64,000 nt of DNA from Eledone cirrhosa (lineage: Eukaryota). Shown one piece after another: positions 1 through 24,900 of this stretch. Location of the stretch: the NCBI GenBank assembly GCA_964016885.1, contig OZ024745.1, positions 5,828,001 through 5,892,000 on the forward strand, given 5' to 3'. A program made the translations under genes and the position numbers. The notes under the pieces are model-generated. The model saw only the letters and a list, made by a program, of their open reading frames with translations, ran no database searches and was not told the origin of the DNA. Position 1 is the first letter of the stretch; each line of letters opens with the position of its first letter.

Positions 1-959
1 GTTTGAGGTGGTGGATGGTCTAGTGTCGTGGGTTTGTTCCTGGTTTGAGGTGGTGGGTGGTCTAGTGTCGTGGGTTTTTTCCTGGTTTGAGGTGGTGGGT
101 GGTCTAGTGTCGTGGGTTTGATTCCTGGTTTGAGGTGGTGGATGGTCTAGTGTCGTGGGGTTTGATTCCTGGGTTGGGGTGGTGGGTGGTCTAGTGTCGT
201 GGGTTTGATTCCTGGGTTGGGGTGGTGGGTGGTCTAGTGTCGTGGGTTTGTTCCTGGTTTGAGGTGGTGGATGGTCTAGTGTCGTGGGTTTGATTCCTGG
301 GTTGGGGTGGTGGGTGGTCTAGTGTCGTGGGGTTGATTCCTGGGTTGGGGTGGTGGGTGGTCTAGTGTCGTGGGTTTGATTCCTGGTTTGAGGTGGTGGG
401 TGGTCTATTATCGTGGGTTTGATTCCTGGTTTGAGGTGGTGGATGGTCTAGTGTCGTGGGTTTGTTCCTGGTTTGAGGTGGTGGATGGTCTAGTGTCGTG
501 GGTTTGTTCCTGGTTTGAGGTGGTGGATGGTCTAGTGTCGTGGGTTTGTTCCTGGTTTGAGGTGGTGGGTGGTCTAGTGTCGTGGGTTTGTTCCTGGTTT
601 GAGGTGGTGGATAGTCTAGTGTCGTGGGTTTGTTCCTGGTTTGAAGTGGTGGATGGTCTAGTGTCGTGGGTTTGTTCCAGGGTTTGAGGTGGTGGGTGGT
701 CTAGTGTCGTGGGTTTGTTCCTGGTTTGAGGTGGTGGGTGGTCTAGTGTCGTGGGTTTGTTCCTGGTTTGAGCTGGTGGATAGTCTAGTGTCGTGGTTTT
801 GTTCCTGGTTTGAGGTGGTGGATGGTCTAGTGTCGTGGGTTTGTTCCTGGTTTGAGGTGGTGGATGGTCTAGTGTCGTGGGTTTGTTCCTGGTTTGAGGT
901 GGTGGATGGTCTAGTGTCGTGGGTTTGTTCCTGGTTTGAGGTGGTGGGTGGTCTAGTGT

Positions 960-2050
960 CGTGGGGTTGATTCCGAGGTTGGGAGGTGGCTAGTCTAATG
1001 TCGTGGGTTTGATTCCTGGTTTGAGGTGGTGGGTGGTCTAGTGTCGTGGGTTTGATTCCTGGTTTGAGGTGGTGGGTGGTCTAGTGTCGTGGGGTGATTC
1101 CTGGGTTGAGGTGGTGGGTGGTCTAGTGTCGTGGGTTTGATTCCTGGTTTGAGGTGGTGGGTGGTCTAGTGTCGTGGGGTTGATTCCTAGGTTGGGAGGT
1201 GGGTAGTCTAGTGTCGTGGGTTGATTCGTGGTTTGAGGTGGTGGGTGGTCTAGTGTCGTGGGATTGATTCCTGGTTTGAGGTGGTGGGTGGTCTAGTGTC
1301 GTGGGATGGATTCCTGGTTTGAGGTGGTGGGTGGTCTAGTGTCATGGGGTTGCTTCCTAGGTCCTAGGTTGCGGTGGTGGGTGGTCTAGTGTCGTGGGGT
1401 TGATTCATGGGTTGGGGTGGTGGGTGGTCTAGTGTCGTGGGGTTGATTCCCGGGTTGGGGTGGTGGGTGATCTAGTGTCGTTGGTTTGATTCTTGGGTTG
1501 AGGTGGTGGGTGGTCTAGTGTCGTGGGTTTGATTCCTGATTTGAGGTGGTGGGTGGTCTAGTGTCGTGGGGTTGATTCCTGGTTTGAGAAGGTGGGTGGT
1601 CTAGTGTCGTGGGGTTGATTCCTGGTTTCAGGTGGTGGGTGATCTAGTGTCGTGGGTTTGATTCCTGGCTTGGGGTGGTGGGTGGTCTAGTGTCGTGGGT
1701 TGGATTCCTGGGTTGGGGTGGTGGGTGGTCTAGTGTCGTGGGGTTGATTCCTGGTTTGAGGTGGTGGGTGGTCTAGTGTCGTGGGGTTGATTCCTGGGTT
1801 GGGGTGGTGGGTAGTCTAGTGTCGTGGGTTTGATTCCTGGTTTGAGGTGGTGGGTGGTCTAGTGTCGTGGGGTTGATTCCTGGTTTGAGGTGGTGGGTGA
1901 TCTAGTGTCGTGGGTTTGATTCCTATCTTGGGGTGGTGGGTGGTCTAGTGTCGTGGGTTTGATTCCTGGGTCGGGGTGGTGGGTGGTCTAGTGTCGTGGG
2001 TTTGATTCCTGGGTTGTGGTGGTGGGTGGTCTAGTGTCGTGGGTTTGATT
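960..2050 (+). repeat. Diverged cassette A (mostly 43-mers), first copy; others at ~3180-4430, ~5750-6990, ~8480-9560, partial ~11000-11470 and ~13550-14020, ~15320-16110, ~34720-35550
   Basis: Ordered private variants: GCTTCCTAGGTCCTAGG, GATTCATGGG, GATTCCCGGG, GATTCTTGGG, CCTGATTTGAG, GAGAAGG, TTTCAGG, CCTATCTTGG, CCTGGGTCGGGG. CCTAGGTCCTAGG starts at 1356, 3580, 6144, 8793, 15351 and 34748. Confidence 0.9.
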
Positions 2051-3059
2051 CCTGGTTTGAGGTGGTGGATGGTCTAGTGTCGTGGATTTGTTCCTGGTTT
2101 GAGGTGGTGGGTGGTCTAGTGTCGTGGGTTTGTTCCTGGTTTGAGGTGGTGGATGGTCTAGTGTCGTGGGTTTGTTCCTGGTTTGAGGTGGTGGATGGTC
2201 TAGTGTCGTGGGTTTGTTCCTGGTTTGACGTGGTGGATGGTCTAGTGTCGTGGGTTTGTTCCTGGTTTGAGGTGGTGGATGGTCTAGTGTCGTGGGTTTG
2301 TTCCTGGTTTGAGGTGGTGGATGGTCTAGTGTCGTGGGTTTTTTCCTGGTTTGAGGTGGTGGGTGGTCTAGTGTCGTGGGTTTGATTCCTGGTTTGAGGT
2401 GGTGGATGGTCTAGTGTCGTGGGTTTGATTCCTGGGTTGGGGTGGTGGGTGGTCTAGTGTCGTGGGTTTGATTCCTGGGTTTGGGTGGTGGGTGGTCTAG
2501 TGTCGTGGGTTTGTTCCTGGTTTGAGGTGGTGGATAGTCTAGTGTCGTGGGTTTGTTCCTGGTTTGAGGTGGTGGATGGTCTAGTGTCGTGGGTTTGTTC
2601 CTGGGTTTGAGGTGGTGGGTGGTCTAGTAACGTGGGTTTGTTCCTGGTTTGAGGTGCTGGGTGGTCTAGTGTCGTGGGTTTGTTCCTGGTTTGAGGTGGT
2701 GGGTGGTCTAGTGTCGTGGGTTTTTTCCTGGTTTGAGGTGGTGGGTGGTCTAGTGTCGTGGGTTTGATTCCTGGTTTGAGGTGGTGGATGGTCTAGTGTC
2801 GTGGGTTTGATTCCTGGGTTGGGGTGGTGGGTGGTCTAGTGTCGTGGGTTTGATTCCTGGGTTGGGGTGGTGGCTGCTCTAGTGTCGTGGGTTTGTTCCT
2901 GGTTTGAGGTGGTGGATGGTCTAGTGTCGTGGGTTTGATTCCTGGGTTGGGGTGGTGGGTGGTCTAGTGTCGTGGGTTTGATTCCTGGTTTGAGGTGGTG
3001 GGTGGTCTATTATCGTGGGTTTGATTCCTGGTTTGAGCTGGTGGATGGTCTAGTGTCGT

Positions 3060-6000
3060 GGGTTTGTTCCTGGTTTGAGGTGGTGGATGGTCTAGTGTCG
3101 TGGGTTTGTTCCTGGTTTGAGGTGGTGGATGGTCTAGTGTCGTGGGTTTGTTCCTGGTTTGAGGTGGTGGGTGGTCTAGTGTCGTGGGGTTGATTCCTAG
3201 GTTGGGAGGTGGGTAGTCTAATGTCGTGGGTTTGATTCCTGGTTTGAGGTGGTGGGTGGTCTAGTGTCGTGGGTTTGATTCCTGGTTTGAGGTGGTGGGT
3301 GGTCTAGTGTCGTGGGGTGATTCCTGGGTTGAGGTGGTGGGTGGTCTAGTGTCGTGGGTTTGATTCCTGGTTTGAGGTGGTGGGTGGTCTAGTGTCGTGG
3401 GGTTGATTCCTAGGTTGGGAGGTGGGTAGTCTAGTGTCGTGGGTTTGATTCGTGGTTTGAGGTGGTGGGTGGTCTAGTGTCGTGGGATTGATTCCTGGTT
3501 TGAGGTGGTGGGTGGTCTAGTGTCGTGGGATTGATTCCTGGTTTGAGGTGGTGGGTGGTCTAGTGTCATGGGGTTGCTTCCTAGGTCCTAGGTTTGGGTG
3601 GTGGGTGGTCTAGTGTCGTGGGGTTGATTCATGGGTTGGGGTGGTGGGTGGTCTAGTGTCGTGGGGTTGATTCCCGGGTTGGGGTGGTGGGTGATCTAGT
3701 GTCGTTGGTTTGATTCTTGGGTTGAGCTGGTGGGTGGTCTAGTGTCGTGGGTTTGATTCCTGATTTGAGGTGGTGGGTGGTCTAGTGTCGTGGGGTTGAT
3801 TCCTGGTTTGAGAAGGTGGGTGGTCTAGTGTCGTGGGGTTGATTCCTGGTTTCAGGTGGTGGGTGATCTAGTGTCGTGGGTTTGATTACTGGCTTGGGGT
3901 GGTGGGTGGTCTAGTGTCGTGGGTTGGATTCCTGGGTTGGGGTGGTGGGTGGTCTAGTGTCGTGGGGTTGATTCCTGGTTTGAGGTGGTGGGTGGTCTAG
4001 TGTCGTGGGGTTGATTCCTGCGTTGGGGTGGTGGGTAGTCTAGTGTCGTGGGTTTGATTCCTGGTTTGAGGTGGTGGGTGGTCTAGTGTCATGGGGTTGA
4101 TTCCTGGTTTGAGGTGGTGGGTGGTCTAGTGTCGTGGGGTTGATTCCTGGTTTGAGAAGGTGGGTGGTCTAGTGTCGTGGGGTTGATTCCTGGTTTCAGG
4201 TGGTGGGTGATCTAGTGTCGTGGGTTTGATTCCTGGGTTGGGGTGGTGCGTGGTCTAGTGTCGTGGTTTTGATTCCTGGGTCGGGGTGGTGGGTGGTCTA
4301 GTGTCGTGGGTTTGATTCCTGGGTTGGGGTGGTGAGTGGTCTAGTGTCGTGGGTTTGATTCCTGTGTTGGGGTGGTGGGTGGTCTAGTGTCGTGGGGTTG
4401 ATTCCTGGGTTGGGGTGGTGGGTGGTCTATTATCGTGGGTTTGATTCCTGGTTTGAGGTGGTGGATGGTCTAGTGTCGTGGGTTTGTTCCTGGTTTGAGG
4501 TGGTGGATGGTCTAGTGTCGTGGGTTTGTTCCTGGTTTGAGGTGGTGGATGGTCTAGTGTCGTGGATTTGTTCCTGGTTTGAGGTGGTGGGTGGTCTAGT
4601 GTCGTGGGTTTGTTCCTGGTTTGAGGTGGTGGATGGTCTAGTGTCGTGGGTTTGTTCCTGGTTTGAGGTGGTGGATGGTCTAGTGTCGTGGGTTTGTTCC
4701 TGGTTTGACGTGGTGGATGGTCTAGTGTCGTGGGTTTGTTCCTGGTTTGAGGTGGTGGATGGTCTAGTGTCGTGGGTTTGTTCCTGGTTTGAGGTGGTGG
4801 GTGGTCTAGTGTCGTGGGTTTTTTCCTGGTTTGAGGTGGTGGGTGGTCTAGTGTCGTGGGTTTGATTCCTGGTTTGAGGTGGTGGATGGTCTAGTGTCGT
4901 GGGTTTGATTCCTGGGTTGGGGTGGTGGGTGGTCTAGTGTCGTGGGTTTGATTCCTGGGTTGGGGTGGTGGGTGGTCTAGTGTCGTGGGTTTGTTCTTGG
5001 TTTGAGGTGGTGGATAGTCTAGTGTCGTGGGTTTGTTCCTGGTTTGAGGTGGTGGATGGTCTAGTGTCGTGGGTTTGTTCCTAGGTTTGAGGTGGTGGGT
5101 GGTCTAGTAACATGGGTTTGTTCCTGGTTTGAGGTGGTGGGTGGTCTAGTGTCGTAGGTTTTTTCCTGGTTTGAGGTGGTGGATGGTCTAGTGTCGTGGG
5201 TTTGTTCCTGGTTTGAGGTGGTGGGTGGTCTAGTGTCGTGGGTTTGATTCCTGTTTTGAGGTGGTGGATGTTCTAGTGTCGTTGGTTTGATTCCTGGGTT
5301 GGGGTGGTGTGTGGTCTAGTGTCGTGGGTTTGACTCCTGGGTTGGGGTGGTGGCTGGTCTAGTGTCGTGGGTTTGTTCCTGGTTTGAGGTGGTGGGTGGT
5401 CTAGTGTCGCGGGTTTGATTCCTGGGTTGGGGTGGTGGCTGGTCTAATGTCGTGGGGTTGATTCCTGGTTTGAGGTGGTGGGTGGTCTAGTGTCGTGGGT
5501 TTGATTCCTGGGTTGGGGTGGTGGGTCGTCTAGTGTCGTGGGTTTGTTCCTGGATTGAGGTGGTGGATGGTCTAGTGTCGTGGGTTTGTTCCTGGTTTGA
5601 GGGGGTGGATGGTCTAGTGTCGTGGGTTTGTTCCTGGTTTGAGGTGGTGGATGGTCTAGTGTCGTGGGTTTGTTCCTGGTTTGAGGTGGTGGATGGTCTA
5701 GTGTCGTGGGTTTGTTCCTGGTTTGAGGTGGTGGGTGGTCTAGTGTCGTGGGGTTGATTCCTAGGTTGGGAGGTGGGTAGTCTAATGTCGTGGGTTTGAT
5801 TCCTGGTTTGAGGTGGTGGGTGGTCTAGTGTCGTGGGTTTGATTCCTGGTTTGAGGTGGTGGGTGGTCTAGTGTCGTGGGGTGATTCCTGGGTTGAGGTG
5901 GTGCGTGGTCTAGTGTCGTGGGTTTGATTCCTGGTTTGAGGTGGTGGGTGGTCTAGTGTCGTGGGGTTGATTCCTAGGTTGGGAGGTGGGTAGTCTAGTG

Positions 6001-8200
6001 TCGTGGATTTGATTCGTGGTTTGAGGTGGTGGGTGGTCTAGTGTCGTGGGATTGATTCCTGGTTTGAGGTGGTGGGTGGTCTAGTGTCGTGGGATTGATT
6101 CCTGGTTTGAGGTGGTGGGTGGTCTAGTGTCATGGGGTTGCTTCCTAGGTCCTAGGTTTGGGTGGTGGGTGGTCTAGTGTCGTGGGGTTGATTCATGGGT
6201 TGGGGTGGTGGGTGGTCTAGTGTCGTGGGGTTGATTCCCGGGTTGGGGTGGTGGGTGATCTAGTGTCGTTGGTTTGATTCTTGGGTTGAGCTGGTGGGTG
6301 GTCTAGTGTCGTGGGTTTGATTCCTGATTTGAGGTGGTGGGTGGTCTAGTGTCGTGGGGTTGATTCCTGGTTTGAGAAGGTGGGTGGTCTAGTGTCGTGG
6401 GGTTGATTCCTGGTTTCAGGTGGTGGGTGATCTAGTGTCGTGGGTTTGATTACTGGCTTGGGGTGGTGGGTGGTCTAGTGTCGTGGGTTGGATTCCTGGG
6501 TTGGGGTGGTGGGTGGTCTAGTGTCGTGGGGTTGATTCCTGGTTTGAGGTGGTGGGTGGTCTAGTGTCGTGGGGTTGATTCCTGCGTTGGGGTGGTGGGT
6601 AGTCTAGTGTCGTGGGTTTGATTCCTGGTTTGAGGTGGTGGGTGGTCTAGTGTCATGGGGTTGATTCCTGGTTTGAGGTGGTGGGTGGTCTAGTGTCGTG
6701 GGGTTGATTCCTGGTTTGAGAAGGTGGGTGGTCTAGTGTCGTGGGGTTGATTCCTGGTTTCAGGTGGTGGGTGATCTAGTGTCGTGGGTTTGATTCCTGG
6801 GTTGGGGTGGTGCGTGGTCTAGTGTCGTGGTTTTGATTCCTGGGTCGGGGTGGTGGGTGGTCTAGTGTCGTGGGTTTGATTCCTGGGTTGGGGTGGTGAG
6901 TGGTCTAGTGTCGTGGGTTTGATTCCTGTGTTGGGGTGGTGGGTGGTCTAGTGTCGTGGGGTTGATTCCTGGGTTGGGGTGGTGGGTGGTCTATTATCGT
7001 GGGTTTGATTCCTGGTTTGAGGTGGTGGATGGTCTAGTGTCGTGGGTTTGTTCCTGGTTTGAGGTGGTGGATGGTCTAGTGTCGTGGGTTTGTTCCTGGT
7101 TTGAGGTGGTGGATGGTCTAGTGTCGTGGATTTGTTCCTGGTTTGAGGTGGTGGGTGGTCTAGTGTCGTGGGTTTGTTCCTGGTTTGAGGTGGTGGATGG
7201 TCTAGTGTCGTGGGTTTGTTCCTGGTTTGAGGTGGTGGATGGTCTAGTGTCGTGGGTTTGTTCCTGGTTTGACGTGGTGGATGGTCTAGTGTCGTGGGTT
7301 TGTTCCTGGTTTGAGGTGGTGGATGGTCTAGTGTCGTGGGTTTGTTCCTGGTTTGAGGTGGTGGGTGGTCTAGTGTCGTGGGTTTTTTCCTGGTTTGAGG
7401 TGGTGGGTGGTCTAGTGTCGTGGGTTTGATTCCTGGTTTGAGGTGGTGGATGGTCTAGTGTCGTGGGTTTGATTCCTGGGTTGGGGTGGTGGGTGGTCTA
7501 GTGTCGTGGGTTTGATTCCTGGGTTGGGGTGGTGGGTGGTCTAGTGTCGTGGGTTTGTTCTTGGTTTGAGGTGGTGGATAGTCTAGTGTCGTGGGTTTGT
7601 TCCTGGTTTGAGGTGGTGGATGGTCTAGTGTCGTGGGTTTGTTCCTAGGTTTGAGGTGGTGGGTGGTCTAGTAACATGGGTTTGTTCCTGGTTTGAGGTG
7701 GTGGGTGGTCTAGTGTCGTAGGTTTTTTCCTGGTTTGAGGTGGTGGATGGTCTAGTGTCGTGGGTTTGTTCCTGGTTTGAGGTGGTGGGTGGTCTAGTGT
7801 CGTGGGTTTGATTCCTGTTTTGAGGTGGTGGATGTTCTAGTGTCGTGGGTTTGATTCCTGGGTTGGGGTGGTGTGTGGTCTAGTGTCGTGGGTTTGACTC
7901 CTGGGTTGGGGTGGTGGCTGGTCTAGTGTCGTGGGTTTGTTCCTGGTTTGAGGTGGTGGGTGGTCTAGTGTCGCGGGTTTGATTCCTGGGTTGGGGTGGT
8001 GGCTGGTCTAATGTCGTGGGGTTGATTCCTGGTTTGAGGTGGTGGGTGGTCTAGTGTCGTGGGTTTGATTCCTGGGTTGGGGTGGTGGGTCGTCTAGTGT
8101 CGTGGGTTTGTTCCTGGATTGAGGTGGTGGATGGTCTAGTGTCGTGGGTTTGTTCCTGGTTTGAGGGGGTGGATGGTCTACTGTCGTGGGTTTGTTCCTG
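3060..8200 (+). repeat. Recent tandem duplication, unit 2564 bp
   Basis: ORF-track pairs 4392/6956 and 5518/8082 are both offset by 2564. Shared private variants: CCTGCGTTGG (~4018/6582), GGTGAGTGG (~4331/6895) and TGACTCC (5331/7895). Confidence 0.9.
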
Positions 8201-9348
8201 GTTTGAGGTGGTGGATGGTCTAGTGTCGTGGGTTTGTTCCTGGTTTGAGGTGGTGGGTGGTCTAGTGTCGTGGGTTTTTTCCTGGTTTGAGGTGGTGGGT
8301 GGTCTAGTGTCGTGGGTTTGATTCCTGGTTTGAGGTGGTGGCTGGTCTAGTGTCGTGGGTTTGTTCCTGGTTTGAGGAGGTGGATAGTCTAGTGTCGTGG
8401 GTTTGTTCCTGGTTTGAGGTGGTGGATGGTCTAGTGTCGTGGGTTTGTTCCTGGGTTTGAGGTGGTGGGTGGTCTAGTGTCGTGGGTTTGATTCCTGGTT
8501 TGAGGTAGTGGGTGGTCTAGTGTCGTGCGGTGATTCCTGGGTTGAGGTGGTGGGTGGTCTAGTGTCGTGGGTTTGATTCCTGGTTTGAGGTGGTGGGTGG
8601 TCTAGTGTCGTGGGGTTGATTCCTAGGTTAGGAGGTGGGTAGTCTAGTGTCGTGGGTTTGATTCGTGGTTTGAGGTGGTGGGTGGTCTAGTGAAGTGGGA
8701 TTGATTCCTGGTTTGAGGTGGTGGGTGGTCTAGTGTCGTGGGATTGATTCCTAGTTTGAGGTGGTGGGTGGTCTAGTGTCATGGGGTTGCTTCCTAGGTC
8801 CTAGGTTGGGGTGGTGGGTGGTCTTGTGTCGTGGGGTTGATTCATGGGTTGGGGTGATGGGTGGTCTAGTGTCGTGGGGTTGATTCCCGGGTTGGGGTGG
8901 TGGGTGATCTAGTGTCGTTGGTTTGATTCTTGGGTTGAGGTGGTGGGTGGTCTAGTGTCGTGGGTTTGATTCCTGATTTGAGGTGGTGGGTGGTCTAGTG
9001 TCGTGGGGTTGATTCCTGGTTTGAGAAGGTGGGTGGTCTAGTGTCGTGGGGTTGATTCCTGGTTTCAGGTGGTGGGTGATCTAGTGTCGTGGGTTTGATT
9101 ACTGGCTTGGGGTGGTGGGTGGTCTAGTGTCGTGGGTTGGATTCCTGGGTTGGGGTGGTGGGTGGTCTAGTGTCATGTGGTTGATTCCTGGTTTGAGGTG
9201 GTGGGTGGTCTAGTGTCGTGGGGTTGATTCCTGGGTTGGGGTGGTGGGTAGTCTAGTGTCGTGGGTTTGATTCCTGGTTTGAGGTGGTGGGTGGTCTAGT
9301 GTCGTGGGGTTGATTCCTGGTTTGAGGTGGTGGGTGATCTAGTGTCGT

Positions 9349-9360
9349 GGGTTCGATTCC
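9349..9360 (+). promoter_or_regulatory. Consensus-matching RNA polymerase III B-box-like motif GGGTTCGATTCC (single copy noticed; activity unknown)
   Basis: Matches the type-2 Pol III B-box consensus GTTCRANNC. Other monomers have T or G at the invariant C. Motif match only, no evidence of function. Confidence 0.3.
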
Positions 9361-9689
9361 TATCTTGGGGTGGTGGGTGGTCTAGTGTCGTGGGTTTGAT
9401 TCCTGGGTCGGGGTGGTGGGTGGTCTAGTGTCGTGGGTTTGATTCCTGGGTTGGGGTGGTGGGTGGTCTAGTGTCGTGGGTTTGATTCCTGTGTTGGGGT
9501 GGTGGGTGGTCTAGTGTCGTGGGGTTGATTCCTGGGTTGGGGTGGTGGGTGGTCTATTATCGTGGGTTTGATACCTGGTTTGAGGTGGTGGATGGTCTAG
9601 TGTCGTGGGTTTGTTCCTGGTTTGAGGTGGTGGATGGTCTAGTGTCGTGGGTTTGTTCCTGGTTTGAGGTGGTGGATGGTCTAGTGTCG

Positions 9690-12600
9690 TGGATTTGTTC
9701 CTAGTTTGAGGTGGTGGGTGGTCTAGTGTCGTGGGTTTGTTCCTGGTTTGAGATGGTGGATGGTCTAGTGTCGTGGGTTTGTTCCTGGTTTGAGGTGGTC
9801 GTTGGTCTAGTGTCGTGGGTTTGTTCCTGGTTTGACGTGGTGGATGGTCTAGTGTCGTGGGTTTGTTCCTGGTTTGAGGTGGTGGATGGTCTAGTGTCGT
9901 GGGTTTGTTCCTGGTTTGAGGTGGTGGGTGGTCTAGTGTCGTGGGTTTTTTCCTGGTTTGAGGTGGTGGGTGGTCTAGTGTCGTGGGTTTGATTCCTGGT
10001 TTGAGGTGGTGGATGGTCTAGTGTCGTGGGTTTGATTCCTGGGTTGCGGTGGTGGGTGGTCTAGTGTCGTGGGTTTGATTCCTGGGTTGGGGTGGTGGGT
10101 GGTCTAGTGTCGTGGGTTTGTTCTTGGTTTGAGGTGGTGGATAGTCTAGTGTCATGGGTTTGTTCCTGGTTTGAGGTGGTGGATGGTCTAGTGTCGTGGG
10201 TTTGTTCCTGGGTTTGAGGTGGTGGGTGGTCTAGTGTCGTGGGTTTGTTCCTGGTTTGAGGGGGTGGATGGTCTAGTGTCGTGGGTTTGTTCCTGGTTTG
10301 AGGTGGTGGATGGTCTAGTGTCGTGGGTTTGTTCCTGGTTTGAGGTGGTGGATGGTCTAGTGTCGTGGGTTTGTTCCTGGTTTGAGGTGGTGGGTGGTCT
10401 AGTGTCGTGGGTTTTTTCCTGGTTTGAGGTGGTGGGTGGTCTAGTGTCGTGGGTTTGATTCCTGGTTTGAGGTGGTGGATGGTCTAGTGTCGTGGGTTTG
10501 TTCCTGGTTTGAGGAGGTGGATAGTCTAGTGTCGTGGGTTTGTTCCTGGTTTGAGGTGGTGGATGGTCTAGTGTCGTGGGTTTGTTCCTGGGTTTGAGGT
10601 GGTGGGTGGTCTAGTGTCGTGGGTTTGTTCCTGGTTTGAAGTGGTGGGTGGTCTAGTGTCGTGGGTTTTCTCCTGGTTTGAGGTGGTGGGTGGTCTAGTG
10701 TCGTGGGTTTGTTCCTGGTTTGAGGTGGTGGGTGGTCTAGTGTCGTGGGTTTGATTCCTGTTTTGAGGTGGTGGATGGTCTAGTGTCGTGGGTTTGATTC
10801 CTGGCTTGGGGTGGTGGGTGGTCTAGTGTCGTGGGTTTGATTCCTGTTTTGAGGTGGTGGATGGTCTAGTGTCGTGGGTTTGATTCCTGGCTTGGGGTGG
10901 TGGGTGGTCTAGTATCGTGGGTTTGATTCCTGGGTTGGGGTGGTGGGTGGTCTAGTGTCGTGGGTTTGATTCCTGGGTTGGGGTGGTGGGTGGTCTAGTG
11001 TCGTGGGGTTGATTCCTGGTTTGAGAAGGTGGGTGGTCTAGTGTCGTGGGGTTGATTCCTGGTTTCAGGTGGTGGGTGATCTAGTGTCGTGGGTTTGATT
11101 ACTGGCTTGGGGTGGTGGGTGGTCTAGTGTCGTGGGTTGGATTCCTGGGTTGGGGTGGTGGGTGGTCTAGTGTCGTGGGGTTGATTCCTGGTTTGAGGTG
11201 GTGGGTGGTCTAGTGTCGTGGGGTTGATTCCTGGGTTGGGGTGGTGGGTGGTCTAGTGTCGTGGGTTTGATTCCTATCTTGGGGTGGTGGGTGGTCTAGT
11301 GTCGTGGGTTTGATTCCTGGGTCGGTGTGGTGGGTGGTCTAGTGTCGTGTGTTTGATTCCTGGGTTGGGGTGGTGGGTGGTCTAGTGTCGTGGGTTTGAT
11401 TCCTGTGTTGGGGTGGTGGGTGGTCTAGTGTCGTGGGGTTGATTCCTGGGTTGGGGTGGTGGGTGGTCTATTATGGTGGGTTTGATTCCTGGTTTGAGGT
11501 GGTGGATGGTCTAGTGTCGTGGGTTTGTTCCTGGTTTGAGGTGGTGGATGGTCTAGTGTCGTGGGTTTGTTCCTGGTTTGAGGTGGTGGATGGTCTAGTG
11601 TCGTGGATTTGTTCCTGGTTTGAGGTGGTGGGTGGTCTAGTGTCGTGGGTTTGTTCCTGGTTTGAGGTGGTGGATGGTCTAGTGTCGTGGGTTTGTTCCT
11701 GGTTTGAGGTGGTGGATGGTCTAGTGTCGTGGGTTTGTTCCTGGTTTGACGTGGTGGATGGTCTAGTGTCGTGGGTTTGTTCCTGGTTTGAGGTGGTGGA
11801 TGGTCTAGTGTCGTGGGTTTGTTCCTGGTTTGAGGTGGTGGGTTGTCTAGTGTCGTGGGTTTTTTCCTGGTTTGAGGTGGTGGGTGGTCTAGTGTCGTGG
11901 GTTTGATTCCTGGTTTGAGGTGGTGGATGGTCTAGTGTCGTGGGTTTGATTCCTGGGTTGGGGTGGTGGGTGGTCTAGTGTCGTGGGTTTGATTCCTGGG
12001 TTGGGGTGGTGGGTGGTCTAGTGTCGTGGGTTTGTTCTTGGTTTGAGGTGGTGGATAGTCTAGTGTCGTGGGTTTGTTCCTGGTTTGAGGTGGTGGATGG
12101 TCTAGTGTCGTGGGTTTGTTCCTAGGTTTGAGGTGGTGGGTGGTCTAGTAACGTGGGTTTGTTCCTGGTTTGAGGTGGTGGGTGGTCTAGTGTCGTAGGT
12201 TTTTTCCTGGTTTGAGGTGGTGGATGGTCTAGTGTCGTGGATTTGTTCCTAGTTTGAGGTGGTGGGTGGTCTAGTGTCGTGGGTTTGTTCCTGGTTTGAG
12301 ATGGTGGATGGTCTAGTGTCGTGGCTTTGTTCCTGGTTTGAGGTGGTCGTTGGTCTAGTGTCGTGGGTTTGTTCCTGGTTTGACGTGGTGGATGGTCTAG
12401 TGTCGTGGGTTTGTTCCTGGTTTGAGGTGGTGGATGGTCTAGTGTCGTGGGTTTGTTCCTGGTTTGAGGTGGTGGGTGGTCTAGTGTCGTGGGTTTTTTC
12501 CTGGTTTGAGGTGGTGGGTGGTCTAGTGTCGTGGGTTTGATTCCTGGTTTGAGGTGGTGGATGGTCTAGTGTCGTGGGTTTGATTCCTGGGTTGCGGTGG

Positions 12601-14785
12601 TGGGTGGTCTAGTGTCGTGGGTTTGATTCCTGGGTTGAGGTGGTGGGTGGTCTAGTGTCGTGGGTTTGTTCTTGGTTTGAGGTGGTGGATAGTCTAGTGT
12701 CATGGGTTTGTTCCTGGTTTGAGGTGGTGGATGGTCTAGTGTCGTGGGTTTGTTCCTGGGTTTGAGGTGGTGGGTGGTCTAGTGTCGTGGGTTTGTTCCT
12801 GGTTTGAGGGGGTGGATGGTCTAGTGTCGTGGGTTTGTTCCTGGTTTGAGGTGGTGGATGGTCTAGTGTCGTGGGTTTGTTCCTGGTTTGAGGTGGTGGA
12901 TGGTTTAGTGTCGTGGGTTTGTTCCTGGTTTGAGGTGGTGGGTGGTCTAGTGTCGTGGGTTTTTTCCTGGTTTGAGGTGGTGGGTGGTCTAGTGTCGTGG
13001 GTTTGATTCCTGGTTTGAGGTGGTGGATGGTCTAGTGTCGTGGGTTTGTTCCTGGTTTGAGGAGGTGGATAGTCTAGTGTCGTGGGTTTGTTCCTGGTTT
13101 GAGGTGGTGGATGGTCTAGTGTCGTGGGTTTGTTCCTGGGTTTGAGGTGGTGGGTGGTCTAGTGTCGTGGGTTTGTTCCTGGTTTGAAGTGGTGGGTGGT
13201 CTAGTGTCGTGGGTTTTCTCCTGGTTTGAGGTGGTGGGTGGTCTAGTGTCGTGGGTTTGTTCCTGGTTTGAGGTGGTGGGTGGTCTAGTGTCGTGGGTTT
13301 GATTCCTGTTTTGAGGTGGTGGATGGTCTAGTGTCGTGGGTTTGATTCCTGGCTTGGGGTGGTGGGTGGTCTAGTGTCGTGGGTTTGATTCCTGTTTTGA
13401 GGTGGTGGATGGTCTAGTGTCGTGGGTTTGATTCCTGGCTTGGGGTGGTGGGTGGTCTAGTATCGTGGGTTTGATTCCTGGGTTGGGGTGGTGGGTGGTC
13501 TAGTGTCGTGGGTTTGATTCCTGGGTTGGGGTGGTGGGTGGTCTAGTGTCGTGGGGTTGATTCCTGGTTTGAGAAGGTGGGTGGTCTAGTGTCGTGGGGT
13601 TGATTCCTGGTTTCAGGTGGTGGGTGATCTAGTGTCGTGGGTTTGATTACTGGCTTGGGGTGGTGGGTGGTCTAGTGTCGTGGGTTGGATTCCTGGGTTG
13701 GGGTGGTGGGTGGTCTAGTGTCGTGGGGTTGATTCCTGGTTTGAGGTGGTGGGTGGTCTAGTGTCGTGGGGTTGATTCCTGGGTTGGGGTGGTGGGTGGT
13801 CTAGTGTCGTGGGTTTGATTCCTATCTTGGGGTGGTGGGTGGTCTAGTGTCGTGGGTTTGATTCCTGGGTCGGTGTGGTGGGTGGTCTAGTGTCGTGTGT
13901 TTGATTCCTGGGTTGGGGTGGTGGGTGGTCTAGTGTCGTGGGTTTGATTCCTGTGTTGGGGTGGTGGGTGGTCTAGTGTCGTGGGGTTGATTCCTGGGTT
14001 GGGGTGGTGGGTGGTCTATTATGGTGGGTTTGATTCCTGGTTTGAGGTGGTGGATGGTCTAGTGTCGTGGGTTTGTTCCTGGTTTGAGGTGGTGGATGGT
14101 CTAGTGTCGTGGGTTTGTTCCTGGTTTGAGGTGGTGGATGGTCTAGTGTCGTGGATTTGTTCCTGGTTTGAGGTGGTGGGTGGTCTAGTGTCGTGGGTTT
14201 GTTCCTGGTTTGAGGTGGTGGATGGTCTAGTGTCGTGGGTTTGTTCCTGGTTTGAGGTGGTGGATGGTCTAGTGTCGTGGGTTTGTTCCTGGTTTGACGT
14301 GGTGGATGGTCTAGTGTCGTGGGTTTGTTCCTGGTTTGAGGTGGTGGATGGTCTAGTGTCGTGGGTTTGTTCCTGGTTTGAGGTGGTGGGTTGTCTAGTG
14401 TCGTGGGTTTTTTCCTGGTTTGAGGTGGTGGGTGGTCTAGTGTCGTGGGTTTGATTCCTGGTTTGAGGTGGTGGATGGTCTAGTGTCGTGGGTTTGATTC
14501 CTGGGTTGGGGTGGTGGGTGGTCTAGTGTCGTGGGTTTGATTCCTGGGTTGGGGTGGTGGGTGGTCTAGTGTCGTGGGTTTGTTCTTGGTTTGAGGTGGT
14601 GGATAGTCTAGTGTCGTGGGTTTGTTCCTGGTTTGAGGTGGTGGATGGTCTAGTGTCGTGGGTTTGTTCCTAGGTTTGAGGTGGTGGGTGGTCTAGTAAC
14701 GTGGGTTTGTTCCTGGTTTGAGGTGGTGGGTGGTCTAGTGTCGTAGGTTTTTTCCTGGTTTGAGGTGGTGGATGGTCTAGTGTCG
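9690..14785 (+). repeat. Recent tandem duplication, unit 2548 bp
   Basis: ORF pairs 9711/12259, 10219/12767 and 11433/13981 are all offset by 2548. Shared private variants: GGTCGTTGG, TATTATGGTGGG, GGTTGCGG and GTCGGTGTGG. Confidence 0.92.
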
Positions 14786-15049
14786 TGGGTTTGTTCCTGG
14801 TTTGAGGTGGTGGGTGGTCTAGTGTCGTGGGTTTGATTCCTGTTTTGAGGTGGTGGGTGGTCTAGTGTCGTGGGTTTGTTCCTGGTTTGAGGTGGTGGAT
14901 GGTCTAGTGTCGTGGGTTTGTTCCTGGTTTGAGGTGGTGGATGGTCTAGTGTCGTGGGTTTGATTCCTGGGTTGGGGTGGTGGGTGGTCTAGTGTCGTGG
15001 GTTTGATTCCTTGGTTGGGGTGGTGGATGGTCTAGTGTCGTGGGTTTGT

Positions 15050-18000
15050 TCCTGGTTTGAGGTGGTGGATGGTCTAGTGTCGTGGGTTTGATTCCTGGGT
15101 TGGGGTGGTGGGTGGTCTAGTGTCGTGGGTTTGATTCCTGGGTTGGGGTGGTGGCTGGTCTAGTGTCGTGGGTTTGTTCCTGGTTTGAGGTGGTGGGTGG
15201 TCTAGTGTCGTGGGTTTGATTCCTGGGTTGGGGTGGTGGCTGGTCTAATGTCGTGGGGTTGATTCCTGGTTTGAGGTGGTGGGTGGTCTAGTGTCGTGGG
15301 TTTGATTCATGGGTTGGGGTGGTGGGTGGTCTAGTGTCATGGGGTTGCTTCCTAGGTCCTAGGTTGGGGTGGTGGGTGGTCTTGTGTCGTGGGGTTGATT
15401 CATGGGTTGGGGTGGTGGGTGGTCTAGTGTCGTGGGGTTGATTCCCGGGTTGGGGTGGTGGGTGATCTAGTGTCGTTGGTTTGATTCTTGGGTTGAGGTG
15501 GTGGGTGGTCTAGTGTCGTGGGTTTGATTCCTGATTTGAGGTGGTGGGTGGTCTAGTGTCGTGGGGTTGATTCCTGGTTTGAGAAGGTGGGTGGTCTAGT
15601 GTCGCGGCGTTGATTCCTGGTTTCAGGTGGTGGGTGATCTAGTGTCGTGGGTTTGATTACTGGCTTGGGGTGGTGGGTGGTCTAGTGTCGTGGGTTGGAT
15701 TCCTGGGTTGGGGTGGTGGGTGGTCTAGTGTCGTGGGGTTGATTCCTGGTTTGAGGTGGTGGGTGGTCTAGTGTCGTGGGGTTGACTCCTGGGTTGGGGT
15801 GGTGGGTAGTCTAGTGTCGTGGGTTTGATTCCTGGTTTGAGGTGGTGGGTGGTCTAGTGTCGTGGGGTTGATTCCTGGTTTGAGGTGGTGGGTGATCTAG
15901 TGTCGTGGGTTTGATTCCTATCTTGGGGTGGTGTGTGGTCTAGTGTCGTGGGTTTGATTCCTGGGTCGGGGTGGTGGGTGGTCTAGTGTCGTGGGTTTGA
16001 TTCCTGGGTTGGGGTGGTGGGTGGTCTAGTGTCGTGGGTTTGATTCCTGTGTTGGGGTGGTGGGTGGTCTAGTGTCGTGGGGTTGATTCCTGAGTTGGGG
16101 TGGTGGGTGGTCTATTATCGTGGGTTTGATTCCTGGTTTGAGGTGGTGGATGGTCTAGTGTCGTGGGTTTGTTCCTGGTTTGAGGTGGTGGATGGTCTAG
16201 TGTCGTGGGTTTGTTCCTGGTTTGAGGTGGTGGATGGTCTAGTGTCGTGGATTTGTTCCTGGTTTGAGGTGGTGGGTGGTCTAGTGTCGTGGGTTTGTTC
16301 CTGGTTTGAGATGGTGGATGGTCTAGTGTCGTGGGTTTGTTCCTGGTTTGAGGTGGTGGATGGTCTAGTGTCGTAGGTTTGTTCCTGGTTTGACGTGGTG
16401 GATGGTCTAGTGTCGTGGGTTTGTTCCTGGTTTGAGGTGGTGGATGGTCTAGTGTCGTGGGTTTGTTCCTGGTTTGAGGTGGTGGGTGGTCTAGTGTCGT
16501 GGGTTTTTTCCTGGTTTGAGGTGGTGGGTGGTCTAGTGTCGTGGGTTTGATTTCTGGTTTGAGGTGGTGGATGGTCTAGTGTCGTGGGTTTGATTCCTGG
16601 GTTGGGGTGGTGGGTGGTCTAGTGTCCTGGGTTTGATTCCTGGGTTGGGGTGGTGGGTGGTCTAGTGTCGTGGGTTTGTTCTTGGTTTGAGGTGGTGGAT
16701 AGTTTAGTGTCGTGGGTTTGTTCCTGGTTTGAGGTGGTGGATGGTCTAGTGTCGTGGGTTTGTTCCTGGGTTTGAGGTGGTGGGTGGTCTAGTAACGTGG
16801 GTTTGTTCCTGGTTTGAGGTGGTGGGTGGTCTAGTGTCGTAGGTTTTTTCCTGGTTTGAGGTGGTGGATGGTCTAGTGTCGTGGGTTTGTTCCTGGTTTG
16901 AGGTGGTGGGTGGTCTAGTGTCGTGGGTTTGATTCCTGTTTTGAGGTGGTGGATGGTCTAGTGTCGTGGGTTTGATTCCTGGGTTGGGGTGGTGGGTGGT
17001 CTAGTGTCGTGGGTTTGATTCCTGGATTGGGGTGGTGGCTGGTCTAGTGTCGTGGGTTTGTTCCTGGTTTGAGGTGGTGGGTGGTCTAGTGTCGTGGGTT
17101 TGATTCCTGGGTTGGGGTGGTGGCTGGTCTAATGTCGTGGGGTTGATTCCTGGTTTGAGGTGGTGGGTGGTCTAGTGTCGTGGGTTTGATTCCTGGGTTG
17201 GGGTGGTGGGTGGTCTAGTGTCGTGGGTTTGATTCCTGGGTTGGGGTGGTGGCTGGTCTAGTGTCGTGGGTTTGTTCCTGGTTTGAGGTGGTGGGTGGTC
17301 TAGTGTCGTGGGTTTGATTCCTGGGTTGGGGTGGTGGCTGGTCTAATGTCGTGGGGTTGATTCCTGGTTTGAGGTGGTGGGTGGTCTAGTGTCGTGGGTT
17401 TGATTCCTGGGTTGGGGTGGTGGCTGGTCTAATGTCGTGGGGTTGATTCCTGGTTTGAGGTGGTGGGTGGTCTAGTGTCGTGGGTTTGATTCCTGGGTTG
17501 GGGTGGTGGGTCGTCTAGTGTCGTGGGTTTGATTCCTGGTTTGAGGTGGTGGATGGTCTAGTGTCGTGGGTTTGTTCCTGGTTTGAGGTGGTGGATGGTC
17601 AAGTGTCGTGGGTTTGTTCCTGGTTTGAGGTGGTGAATGGTCTAGTGTCGTGGGTTTGTTCCTGGTTTGAGGTGGTGGATGGTCTAGTGTCGTGGGTTTG
17701 TTCCTGGTTTGAGGTGGTGGGTGGTCTAGTGTCGTGGGTTTGTTCCTGGATTGAGGTGGTGGATGGTCTAGTGTCGTGGGTTTGTTCCTGATTTGAGGGG
17801 GTGGATGGTCTAGTGTCGTGGGTTTGTTCCTGGTTTGAGGTGGTGGATGGTCTAGTGTCGTGGGTTTGTTCCTGGTTTGAGGTGGTGGATGGTCTAGTGT
17901 CGTGGGTTTGTTCCTGGTTTGAGGTGGTGGGTGGTCTAGTGTCGTGGGTTTTTTCCTGGTTTGAGGTGGTGGGTGGTCTAGTGTCGTGGGTTTGATTCCT

Positions 18001-21000
18001 GGTTTGAGGAGGTGGATGGTCTAGTGTCGTGGGTTTGTTCCTGGTTTGAGGAGTTGGATAGTCTAGTGTCGTGGGTTTGTTCCTGGTTTGAGGTGGTGGA
18101 TGGTCTAGTGTCGTGGGTTTGTTCCTGGGTTTGAGGTGGTGGGTGGTCTAGTGTCGTGGGTTTGTTCCTGGTTTGAAGTGGTGGGTGGTCTAGTGTCGTG
18201 GGTTTTCTACTGGTTTGAGCTGGTGGGTGGTCTAGTGTCGTGGGTTTGTTCCTGGTTTGAGGTGGTGGGTGGTCTAGTGTCGTGGGTTTGATTCCTGTTT
18301 TGAGGTGGTGGATGGTCTAGTGTCGTGGGTTTGATTCCTGGCTTGGGGTGGTGGGTGGTCTAGTGTCGTGGGTTTGATTCCTGGGTTGGGGTGGTGGGTG
18401 GTCTAGTGTCGTGGGTTTGATTCCTGTGTTGGGGTGGTGGGTGGTCTAGTGTCGTGGGGTTGATTCCTGGGTTGGGGTGGTGGGTGGTCTTGTGTCGTGG
18501 GTTTGATTCCTGGTTTGAGGTGGTGGGTGGTCTATTATCGTGGGTTTGATTCATGGTTTGAGGTGGTGGATGGTCTAGTGTCGTGGGTTTGTTCCTGGTT
18601 TGAGGTGGTGGATGGTCTAGTGTCGTGGGTTTGTTCCTGTTTTGAGGTGGTGGATGGTCTAGTGTCGTGGGTTTGTTCCTGGTTTGAGGTGGTGGGTGTC
18701 TAGTGTCGTGGGTTTGTTCCTGGTTTGAGGTGGTGGATGGTCTTGTGTCGTGGGTTTGTTCCTGGTTTGAGGTGGTGGATGGTCTAGTGTCGTGGGTTTG
18801 TTCCTGGTTTGAGGTGGTGGATGGTCTAGTGTCGTGGGTTTGTTCCTGGTTTGAGGTGGTGGGTGGTCTAGTGTCGTGGGTTTTTTCCTGGTTTGAGGTG
18901 GTGGGTGGTCTAGTGTCGTGGGTTTGATTCCTGGTTTGAGGTGGTGGATGGTCTAGTGTCGTGGGTTTGATTCCTGGGTTGGGGTGGTGGGTGGTCTAGT
19001 GTCGTGGGTTTGATTCCTGGGTTGGGGTGGTGGATAGTCTAGTGTCGTGGGTTTGTTCCTGGTTTGAGGTGGTGGATGGTCTAGTGTCGTGGGTTTGTTC
19101 CTGGGTTTGAGGTGGTGGGTGGTCTAGTGTCGTGGGTTTGTTCCTGGTTTGAGGTGGTGGGTGGTCTAGTGTCGTGGGTTTGATTCCTGGTTTGAGGTGG
19201 TGGATGGTCTAGTGTCGTGGGTTTGATTCCTGGGTTGGGGTGGTGGGTGGTCTAGTGTCGTGGGTTTGTTCCTGGTTTGAGGTGGTGGATAGTCTAGTGT
19301 CGTGGGTTTGTTCCTGGTTTGAGGTGGTGGATGGTCTAGTGTCGTGGGTTTGTTCCTGGGTTTGAGGTGGTGGGTGGTCTAGTGTCGTGGGTTTGTCCCT
19401 GGTTTGAGGTGGTGGGTGGTCTAGTGTCGTGGGTTTTTCCTGGTTTGAGGTGGTGGGTGGTCTAGTGTCGTGGGTTTGTTCCTGGTTTGAGGTGGTGGGT
19501 GGTCTAGTGTCGTGGGTTTGATTCCTGTTTTGAGGTGGTGGGTGGTCTAGTGTCGTGGGTTTGATTCCTGGGTTGGGGTGGTGGGTGGTCTAGTGTCGTG
19601 GGTTTGTTCCTGGTTTGAGGTGGTGGATGGTCTAGTGTCGTGGGTTTGATTCCTGGGTTGGGGTGGTGGGTGGTCTAGTGTCGTGGGGTTGATTCCTGGG
19701 TTGGGGTGGTGGGTGGTCTAGTGTCGTGGGTTTGATTCCTGGTTTGAGGTGGTGGGTGGTCTATTATCGTGGGTTTGATTCCTGGTTTGAGGTGGTGGAT
19801 GGTCTAGTGTCGTGGGTTTGTTCCTGTTTTGAGGTGGTGGATGGTCCAGTGTCGTGGGTTTGTTCCTGGTTTGAGGTGGTGGATGGTCTAGTGTCGTGGG
19901 TTTGTTCCTGGTTTGAGGTGGTGGATGGTCTAGTGTCGTGGGTTTGTTCCTGGTTTGAGGTGGTGGGTGGTCTAGTGTCGTGGGTTTGTTCCTGGTTTGA
20001 GGTGGTGGATAGTCTAGTGTCGTGGGTTTGTTCCTGGTTTGAGGTGGTGGATGGTCTAGTGTCGTGGGTTTGTTCCAGGGTTTGAGGTGGTGGGTGGTCT
20101 AGTGTCGTGGGTTTGTTCCTGGTTTGAGGTGGTGGGTGGTCTAGTGTCGTGGGTTTGTTCCTGGTTTGAGCTGGTGGATGGTCTAGTGTCGTGGTTTTGT
20201 TCCTGGTTTGAGGTGGTGGATGGTCTAGTGTCGTGGGTTTGTTCCTGGTTTGAGGTGGTGGATGGTCTAGTGTCGTGGGTTTGTTCCTGGTTTGAGGTGG
20301 TGGATGGTCTAGTGTCGTGGGTTTGTTCCTGGTTTGAGGTGGTGGGTGGTCTAGTGTCGTGGGTTTTTTCTTGGTTTGAGGTGGTGGGTGGTCTAGTGTC
20401 GTGGGTTTGATTCCTGGTTTGAGGTGGTGGATGGTCTAGTGTCATGGGTTTGATTCCTGGGTTGGGGTGGTGGGTGGTCTAGTGTCGTGGGTTTGATTCC
20501 TGGGTTGGGGTGGTGGGTGGTCTAGTGTCGTGGGTTTGTTCCTGGTTTGAGGTGGTGGATGGTCTAGTGTCGTGGGTTTGATTCCTGGGTTGGTGTGGTG
20601 GGTGGTCTAGTGGCGTGGGGTTGATTCCTGGGTTGGGGTGGTGGGTGGTCTAGAGTCGTGGGTTTGATTCCTGGTTTGAGGTGGTGGGTGGTCTATTATC
20701 GTGGGTTTGATTCCTGGTTTGAGGTGGTGGATGGTCTAGTGTCGTGGGTTTGTTCCTGGTTTGAGGTGGTGGATGGTCTAGTGTCGTGGGTTTGTTCCTG
20801 GTTTGAGGTGGTGGATGGTCTAGTGTCGTGGGTTTGTTCCTGGTTTGAGGTGGTGGATGGTCTAGTGTCGTGGGTTTGTTCCAGGGTTTGAGGTGGTGGG
20901 TGGTCTAGTGTCGTGGGTTTGTTCCTGGTTTGAGGTGGTGGATGGTCTAGTGTCGTGGGTTTGTTCCAGGGTTTGAGGTGGTGGGTGGTCTAGTGTCGTG

Positions 21001-24000: not shown

Positions 24001-24900
24001 CTAGTGTCGTGGGTTTGTTCCTGGGTTTGAGGTGGTGGGTGGTCTAGTGTCGTGGGTTTGTTCCTGGTTTGAAGTGGTGGGTGGTCTAGTGTCGTGGGTT
24101 TTCTCCTAGTTTGAGGTGGTGGGTGGTCTAGTGACGTGGGTTTGTTCCTGGTTTGATGTGGTGGGTGGTCTAGTGTCGTGGGTTTGATTCCTGTTTTGAG
24201 GTGGTGGATGGTCTAGTGTCGTGGGTTTGATTCCTGGGTTGGGGTGGTGGGTGGTCTAGTGTCGTGGGTTTGATTCCTGGGTTGGGGTGGTGGGTGGTCT
24301 AGTGTCGTGGGTTTGTTCCTGGTTTGAGGTGGTGGGTGGTCTAGTGTCGTGGGTTTGATTCCTGGGTTGGGGTGGTGGGTGGTCTAGTGTCGTGGGTTTG
24401 ATTCCTGGTTTGAGGTGGTGGGTGGTCTATTATCGTGGGTTTGATTCCTGGTTTGAGGTGGTGGATGGTCTAGTGTCGTGGGTTTGTTCCTGGTTTGAGG
24501 TGGTGGATGGTCTAGTGTCGTGGGTTTGTTCCTGGTTTGAGGTGGTGGATGGTCCAGTGTCGTGGGTTTGTTCCTGTTTTGAGGTGGTGGATGGTCTAGT
24601 GTCGTGGGTTTGTTCCTGGTTTGAGGTGGTGGGTGGTCTAGTGTCGTGGGTTTGTTCCTGGTTTCAGGTGGTGGATGGTCTAGTGTCGTGGGTTTGTTCC
24701 TGGTTTGAGGTGGTGGATAGTCTAGTGTCGTGGGTTTGTTCCTGGTTTGAGGTGGTGGATGGTCTAGTGTCGTGGGTTTGTTCCTGGGTTTGAGGTGGTG
24801 GGTGGTCTAGTGTCGTGGGTTTGTTCCTGGTTTGAGGTGGTGGGTGGTCTAGTGTCGTGGGTTTTTCCTGGTTTGAGGTGGTGGGTGGTCTAGTGTCGTG
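15050..24900 (+). repeat. ~10-kb block repeated at ~34500-44250 (offset ~19.35-19.48 kb)
   Basis: ORF pairs and offsets: 16077/35517 (19440), 17801/37240 (19439), 18703/38141 (19438), 20658/40139 (19481), 23442/42836 (19394) and 24392/43744 (19352). Shared variants include GGCGTTGATT, GGTGAATGG, TAGAGTCG and TAGTGACG. Confidence 0.9.
21940..22390 (+). repeat. Diverged cassette B, first copy; others at ~27450-27900, partial ~33830-33960, ~41330-41780, ~50700-51155, ~56340-56795, ~62955-63410
   Basis: Ordered private variants: TTGGTGTGG, TTGATGTGG, GATACCTGG, GATTATGGG (three times), TAGTTTCG, TAGTATCGTTGG, GAGGTTGTGG, GGGTTAGGG and GAAGTGACGG. The last marker lies at ~22377, 27892, 33950, 41772, 51145, 56786 and 63401. 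Confidence 0.9.

What the first reader, a model, noticed from the sequence alone, without database searches (positions are those of the whole stretch)
98..129. Monomer looks like a collapsed tRNA (Glu-like) or tRNA-derived SINE head: A-box and B-box fused and amplified ~1,500 times
Seen: 98-109 is GGTGGTCTAGTG, 110-113 is TCGT and 114-129 is GGGTTTGATTCCTGGT. Known (recalled from memory, needs checking): metazoan tRNA-Glu begins TCCCTGGTGGTCTAGTGG and ends ...CCCGGGTTCGATTCCCGGTCAGGGAA. That gives 12/12 identity over the A-box/D-arm and 14/16 over the T-arm/B-box, in the correct order, with both mismatches CpG>TpG. GTCGTGGGTTCGA is also a typical T-arm approach, as in tRNA-Lys(CTT) and many tRNA-SINE heads. 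Inference: the satellite arose from a tRNA gene or SINE head that lost ~30 nt (distal D-loop, anticodon and variable arms) and then amplified. This would make the GATTCC 43-mer ancestral and the GTTCC 42-mer derived. The sequence is low-complexity and G/T-rich, so chance similarity has to be excluded.
Basis: partly seen in the sequence, partly recalled or inferred. Interest (0 to 1): 0.75.

Follow-up and report, generated by a model that had tools for sequence, protein, structure and literature searches.

The report
Satellite from a collapsed SINE promoter
This 181-kb block of about 4,250 short repeats is made from the front end of a common jumping element (a SINE) that lost 29 bases from its middle, and it likely grew by DNA copying errors into an inert satellite, a kind of repeat already described in reptiles.

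Summary
The window is part of a 181-kb array (G000:C5:5,800,87x-5,981,68x, 4,256 monomers of 42/43 bp). The parent is not tRNA-Glu but the head of a host tRNA-like SINE (at least 10,619 heads). The monomer is that head minus 29 nt, cut at a TAGTG/TAATG microhomology. Five dispersed SINE copies carry the same deletion; one matches the commonest 43-mer at 34 of 36 bases (0 of 3,000 shuffles reach the score). Eleven other arrays repeat the undeleted head; a 71-bp unit minus those 29 nt matches the 43-mer at 37 of 43 columns. Only 1 of 4,256 monomers keeps a consensus B box, so the array is likely not a Pol III promoter array. It is a SINE-derived satellite, with a shorter, internally deleted unit and more copies than the reptile cases read. 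The scan had noted other SINE-head arrays in this genome (unchecked notes). One open lead: the three largest arrays all lost the same B-box C.

The parts
1..64000 (+). Interior of a 42/43-bp tandem array that spans G000:C5:~5,800,870-5,981,680 (181 kb, 4,256 monomers); the window holds 1,506 copies
186..228 (+). One copy of the ancestral (edge-type) 43-bp monomer; its first 36 bases match deletion-bearing SINE copy L133/L135 at 34 of 36
   Evidence: 107 exact copies of this 36-mer in the window
99..109 (+). A-box block from the SINE 5' end (one C>T change against the SINE; the A box's last G is lost at the junction)
105..109 (+). Deletion junction: TAGTG/TAATG microhomology at which 29 nt of the SINE head (distal D loop, anticodon arm, most of the variable region by tRNA numbering, inferred) are missing
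108..128 (+). T-arm / B-box block of the SINE head; position 119 is T where the B-box consensus GTTCRANNC has C
126..141 (+). Linker from the SINE bases just after the B box, running into the next A-box block (tandemisation junction of the type seen in the 71-bp head arrays on C2); this copy carries derived variants
9351..9359 (+). The only consensus B box (GTTCRANNC) in the whole 181-kb array; likely a back-mutation

Best explanation
The array is a SINE-derived satellite whose 43-bp founder unit is the tRNA-like head of a host SINE minus 29 internal bases, likely deleted by a slip between two short look-alike words and then likely expanded by DNA-level slippage and unequal exchange into a likely inert 181-kb block. 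Shown: the parent SINE family; the same 29-nt deletion in dispersed copies; tandem arrays of the undeleted head with the same unit-to-unit junction; no undeleted unit left in this array; ancestral units at the edges; loss of the B-box consensus. Inferred: microhomology as the cause of both junctions (TAGTG/TAATG inside the head; GTG-containing words before the A box and after the B box); recombination and slippage as the means of growth; lack of Pol III activity. The deletion came before the present expansion. Whether it arose in a solo SINE or in a small head array is open.
For: Parent: a ~280-bp dispersed family, 30 copies aligned at 91-100% to the query copy; 10,619 heads at up to 2 mismatches, control 0; non-simple target-site duplications such as L056, L058, L070, L071. 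Deletion: 5 dispersed copies on C6, C11, C14, C15 and C24 with the same 29-nt gap followed by SINE body. The exact junction motif occurs 874 times genome-wide: 872 in this array; the two copies on C11 and C24 fit the motif and account for the remainder. Shuffle test 0 of 3,000. Tandemisation: 11 arrays of the undeleted head, units 69-85 bp, 4 to at least 603 units; 9 of the 10 whose 3' end I read still run into the SINE body (one of them judged by eye). A real 71-bp unit minus the 29 nt aligns to the 43-mer at 37 of 43 columns; three SINE copies come within 5 edits. Polarity: GATT-type units are 0.96 of the first 10 kb, 0.80-0.88 of the last six full 10-kb bins and 0.35-0.57 of the ten central bins before a transitional one; the commonest derived class has 0 of 640 copies in the outer 5 kb at either end; divergence from the SINE rises away from the edges (rho 0.21; monomers are not independent). 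Turnover: exact 200-bp repeats at offsets of 2.5, 6.6, 9.4 and 19.4 kb; recurrent 17-bp deletion units. Promoter: 1 consensus B box in 4,256 monomers; a C56G change in this motif abolishes a TFIIIC-dependent readout in Dictyostelium (PMC5391098, passage).
Against: Neither edge keeps the SINE's 5' end or body: the left edge starts in the linker and the right edge abuts a 62-bp satellite, so the founder copy is not seen. No deleted unit was found among about 880 units of ten sister arrays and no undeleted remnant in this array, so no locus shows both steps together. The 7-10 G/T-rich linker bases cannot be assigned uniquely. Recurrence of the deletion is likely but unproven: the five copies scatter on a tree (5 changes, 0% of bootstrap trees with one origin), yet one clade is not rejected (p-AU 0.149; poorly resolved tree, 46 rows). 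The young parent head itself scores only 14.7 bits against Rfam tRNA (cut-off 29); relatives with the same body score 39.6-44.1. No expression or binding data.
Confidence: 0.86

Rival explanations
1. The monomer comes straight from a tRNA-Glu gene by internal deletion.
For: Host tRNA-Glu matches 11/12 and 13/16 and beats shuffles with a free gap (0 of 3,000). The A-box T (GGTCTAG) is shared with tRNA-Glu, whereas most SINE copies have C. The host has at least 114 tRNA-Glu-like copies, mostly in a tandem gene array.
Against: It does not supply the TCGT linker (1/4) or the bases after the B box; scores are 25-32 against 56-66 for deleted SINE copies. The same C>T arises in SINE copies and SINE-head arrays.
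Confidence: 0.03
2. The unit is one contiguous ~42-bp piece of the SINE (T arm into the start of the body), and the A-box likeness arose later by drift.
For: The T arm plus the first body bases also spans about 42 nt and is G/T-rich.
Against: The 21-nt non-T-arm part aligns 10/11 to the A-box leader (score 17) but only 6/7 to the body start (score 9). Dispersed copies with the exact fused junction exist.
Confidence: 0.03
3. Same origin, but the array is a working element: a cluster of Pol III promoters or TFIIIC sites, in which tandem repetition restores a usable A-to-B distance (58 bp from one unit's A box to the next unit's B box, against 44 in the SINE and 15 within a unit).
For: Spacing figures (58 = 15 + 43). 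Both boxes are recognisable in every unit.
Against: The B-box C is T in all but 1 of 4,256 units; only 39 units keep a full A-box pattern; the central majority type has also lost the B-box A; 294 runs of four or more T lie on the sense strand.
Confidence: 0.05
4. Chance likeness of a low-complexity G/T-rich satellite to promoter boxes.
For: Strong G and T skew; no Rfam hit.
Against: 0 of 3,000 shuffles reach the SINE scores; the junction motif occurs outside the array only in SINE copies, with a control count of 0.
Confidence: 0.01

Closest known systems
SINE-derived satellites (sSat1-3) of squamate reptiles, Vassetzky, Kosushkin and Ryskov 2023, PMC10702118 (parts 1-4 of 5 of the text read; supplements not seen)
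   Same: Tandem unit is part of a host tRNA-derived SINE and shorter than it; includes box B (as snake sSat3) or the tRNA part (as sSat3Ppi2); homogeneous long locus with alternating subvariants; distal position (5.9 Mb from the contig end); short variable sister loci coexist.
   Different: Unit is 42/43 bp (theirs about 67-290); it is discontinuous, fusing A- and B-box blocks (they mention central deletions only as minor variants of a body-derived unit, sSat1Aca); 4,256 units (their largest just over 1,200); no SINE terminus at either end, which they describe only for minor variants; the host is likely not a reptile.
tRNA-related tandem repeats of amphibians (newt PolIII/TAN, Xenopus OAX, Rana/polIII, Hy/polIII), as summarised in the introduction of PMC10702118; originals not read
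   Same: Tandem arrays carrying Pol III promoter-like sequence.
   Different: Units of about 200-360 nt where given, parent SINE not established, PolIII/TAN transcribed in vitro; here the parent and both junctions are identified and the promoter is broken.
Tandem SINE arrays in bivalves, PMC11481361 (passages seen)
   Same: SINE-derived direct repeats in an invertebrate.
   Different: Near-whole SINEs of 150 bp or more, 2-15 units; not a head-only satellite of thousands of units.
Octopus tRNA-derived SINEs OK/OR1/OR2 (Ohshima and Okada 1994; only citations seen; paper not held)
   Same: From recall, the parent's body resembles a CORE-type octopus SINE; this comes from no call.

Membership tests
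SINE-derived satellite (sSat) | At least four head-to-tail middle monomers | tested here: met
   4,256 monomers
SINE-derived satellite (sSat) | Unit is homologous to part of a host SINE and shorter than it | tested here: met
   34/36 to a host SINE copy, 0 of 3,000 shuffles; SINE about 280 bp
SINE-derived satellite (sSat) | A terminal unit extends to one SINE end (usual, not universal) | tested here: not met
   No SINE 5' end or body at either edge; PMC10702118 allows minor variants without it; met by 9 of 10 sister arrays read
SINE-derived satellite (sSat) | High monomer homogeneity in long loci | tested here: met
   Mean 3.4 differences between 42/43-bp monomers of the window; TRF 93% matches
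SINE-derived satellite (sSat) | Subtelomeric tendency; heterochromatin | tested here: inconclusive
   5.9 Mb from the end of a 134.7-Mb contig; all 12 arrays lie 5-20 Mb from an end; chromatin state not testable
tRNA-derived SINE (parent element) | Dispersed, high copy number, short | tested here: met
   10,619 heads (includes array units); about 280 bp
tRNA-derived SINE (parent element) | tRNA-like head with A and B boxes | tested here: inconclusive
   Both boxes present 44 bp apart; Rfam tRNA 14.7 bits for a young copy, under the cut-off; 39.6-44.1 bits for relatives with the same body
tRNA-derived SINE (parent element) | Target-site duplications and simple-repeat tail | tested here: met
   Flanking repeats in 20 of 30 undeleted copies, 9 of them simple TA runs and several more TA-rich; four clear non-simple cases; short repeated tail
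tRNA-derived SINE (parent element) | Pol III transcription and a partner LINE | not tested
   No RNA data; no LINE search made
Named octopus SINE family (OK/OR1/OR2) or CORE superfamily | Match to the published consensus or CORE domain | not testable with these tools
   Supplement and paper not available
tRNA gene / functional type 2 Pol III promoter (the monomer) | Cloverleaf tRNA | tested here: not met
   ARAGORN 0; Rfam 0 in 1-3000
tRNA gene / functional type 2 Pol III promoter (the monomer) | Consensus B box GTTCRANNC | tested here: not met
   1 of 4,256 monomers

The most novel reading that the evidence does not exclude
Breaking the Pol III promoter is what lets a SINE-head array grow large. 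The three largest arrays I found (this one, at least 603 units on C3, about 168 on C2) all carry the same B-box C>T in nearly every unit, against 3 of 38 dispersed copies chosen on the A box alone, while a neighbouring CpG stays intact in 97-99% of this array's units. This genome would then be a natural experiment showing that clusters of live TFIIIC sites are purged or cannot expand, and this array the end point of a traceable series from solo SINE to promoter-collapsed satellite. Against: n = 3 and post hoc; a 5-unit C2 array has the same T and may share descent with the large C2 one; a 37-unit array keeps intact boxes; large arrays may simply be older.
Probability: 0.2. Interest if true: 0.65.

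Novelty: new variant of a known kind. Interest (0 to 1): 0.38.

Why it matters
The origin of most satellites cannot be traced. Here the parent, the deletion and the tandem junction each survive elsewhere in the same genome, so every step from a mobile element to a 181-kb satellite can be read from sequence. It extends SINE-derived satellites beyond reptiles, a question the 2023 paper leaves open, and shows that a unit can be a deleted, fused promoter that covariance-model and tRNA scans miss. No function is shown, and the kind is known, which caps the interest. The B-box pattern gives a cheap test of whether active Pol III promoters limit repeat growth.

Tried and rejected
tRNA-Glu as source: rejected. 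Another host tRNA-like repeat (L076) matches only the 17-nt T-arm block (score 29). SINE remnants at the array edges: none. Deleted units inside sister arrays: none; two loose hits on C3 were false. L133/L135 as the specific founder lineage: its extra GGTTG also occurs in an undeleted copy (L253), so it is not diagnostic. Hairpin excision as the cause of the deletion: the head is predicted to fold into one long hairpin, but the 29 nt cover only one strand plus the loop, so this is not a clean excision. G-quadruplex as growth driver: the ancestral 43-mer scores higher (G4Hunter mean 1.14) than the expanding central 42-mer (0.67), which argues against. Fixed higher-order period: no lag above 0.12 identity. 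Sequencing runs: no RNA holder listed, no evidence either way. Three DNA-contig runs of one study hold about a fifth of the words and may be the source sample. Two of them show the monomer in contigs far deeper than the flank, but nothing bridges the left edge; two RAD-seq runs gave next to no monomer reads; not used as support. Naming the SINE family: supplement and paper unavailable; those files could settle it. Scan notes near this place, by sequence and by words returned nothing.

Full report
Observation. The three blocks at 98-129 are as written. The window is a single array of 1,506 copies, about half 42-mers and half 43-mers, with no tRNA gene and no Rfam match in the first 3 kb. Walking outwards, the array runs from about C5:5,800,870 to 5,981,680: 181 kb and 4,256 monomers. 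It starts in non-array DNA on the left and abuts an unrelated 62-bp satellite on the right.

The parent. Searching the host for the two blocks with a gap found no tRNA but a dispersed element. Thirty of the 40 best copies were fetched; they align over about 280 bp at 91-100% identity to the query copy. They have an A box and a B box 44 bp apart, a shared body, a short repeated tail and target-site duplications. The head motif occurs 10,619 times at up to two mismatches. Rfam scores a young head weakly as tRNA (14.7 bits) and relatives with the same body above the cut-off. That the host is an octopus and the element CORE-like is my recall plus an unchecked scan note; I could not test it.

SINE versus tRNA-Glu. 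The host's tRNA-Glu matches 11/12 and 13/16 but only 1 of the 4 linker bases. The SINE supplies the linker and the bases after the B box. Shuffle tests give 66 and 56 for two deletion-bearing SINE copies, 42-46 for an undeleted head and 25-32 for tRNA-Glu, against shuffle means of 15-21; none of 3,000 shuffles reached a SINE score for the 43-mer.

Junction 1, the collapse. The monomer lacks 29 nt between TAGTG in the A box and TAATG before the T arm. Five dispersed copies, on five contigs, have the same gap and continue into SINE body. Four came from one search at two mismatches, against 10,619 undeleted heads at the same tolerance, so the deletion is rare. The copies differ in subfamily features, and one has the other microhomology base at the joint. 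On a tree of 46 rows they do not group, but one clade is not rejected (p-AU 0.149). Recurrence is therefore likely, not proven. Whether the slip happens during reverse transcription or in DNA cannot be told.

Junction 2, tandemisation. A search for a B box followed closely by an A box gave 75 matches at ten loci, and a second search added one more. These are arrays of the undeleted head with units of 69-85 bp, from 4 units to at least 603. Nine of the ten whose 3' end I read still run into the SINE body. A real 71-bp unit minus the 29 nt aligns with the 43-mer at 37 of 43 columns. These searches see only this junction type, and about 160 of the 414 matches were not placed, so more arrays exist. 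No deleted unit was found in about 880 sister units and no undeleted remnant in this array. So the deletion preceded the present expansion, but the locus that joined both steps is not seen, and this array has lost both SINE ends.

Later history. The SINE-like 43-mer dominates both edges. Kilobase-scale exact repeats and recurrent 17-bp units point to ongoing unequal exchange and slippage; that mechanism is inferred.

Function. One monomer in 4,256 keeps GTTCRANNC and 39 keep a full A-box pattern. A C56G change in this motif abolishes a TFIIIC-dependent readout (PMC5391098, passage), and yeast TFIIIC contacts bases at positions 55-56 (PMC11724288, passage). The array is therefore likely silent for Pol III. 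No expression data bear on this.

The open lead. The B-box C is T in 550 of 603 C3 units, 147 of 158 C2 units and nearly all units here, but in 3 of 38 scored dispersed copies (40 fetched, chosen on the A box). Taken naively that is about 5 in 10,000, but the comparison is post hoc and the arrays are neither independent nor age-matched. A 5-unit array has the T too, a 37-unit array keeps the C, and my first array search favoured intact boxes.

Comparison. This works like, and is filed as, a SINE-derived satellite in the sense of PMC10702118 (parts 1-4 of 5 read). It misses the usual but not universal terminal SINE end. It differs in a shorter, internally deleted unit that fuses both promoter boxes and in having over three times the largest copy number reported there. 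Searches listed no paper on such a unit or on cephalopod SINE satellites; the library lacks most subscription papers, and supplements were not seen. Earlier scan notes describe many other SINE-head arrays in this genome (unchecked), so the phenomenon is not unique to this window; none of the eight shown describes the fused unit.

Verdict. Real, explained, a new variant of a known kind; interest 0.38.

Noticed in passing
G000:C3:~13,070,000-13,130,900, minus strand (L188, L197-L202): At least 61 kb of 82/85-bp units of the undeleted SINE head; B-box C>T in 550 of 603 units; recurrent 56-bp deletion units; far end not fetched.
   Followed up: partly
G000:C2:396.0-407.6 Mb (L150, L186, L210, L184-L185, L164): Five separate arrays with the same 69/71-bp head unit within 12 Mb near the contig end, which suggests transfer of units between neighbouring SINE copies.
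   Followed up: partly
G000:C12:39.82 and 39.96 Mb (L183, L182): Two 74-bp head arrays with the same unusual linker, in opposite orientation 137 kb apart; likely an inverted duplication or conversion.
   Followed up: partly
G000:C3:277.24-277.40 Mb (L099): Tandem array of tRNA-Glu genes with a period of about 1.34 kb, about 90 copies listed.
   Followed up: no
G000:C5:5,981,680 onwards (L039-L040): A 62-bp satellite abuts the array directly; its unit also contains a CTAGTGT word. Most other 2-kb samples between 2 and 8 Mb on C5 began in further, unrelated tandem repeats.
   Followed up: no
array-wide, e.g. G000:C5:5,800,929-5,800,962: Recurrent 17-bp units that lack the B-box block, formed between two GTGGG words; the same kind of microhomology deletion continues inside the array.
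   Followed up: partly
L100:1030-1160 (G000:C5:~5,800,700-5,800,830): A fragment of a different, very abundant repeat lies just left of the array edge.
   Followed up: no
L074, L076-L084: A dispersed family of near-perfect tRNA-like copies with variable anticodons and shared flanks, likely a second tRNA-derived element that passes tRNA scans.
   Followed up: no
G000:C1:243.65-243.68 Mb (L073, L075): Cluster of tRNA-Thr genes.
   Followed up: no
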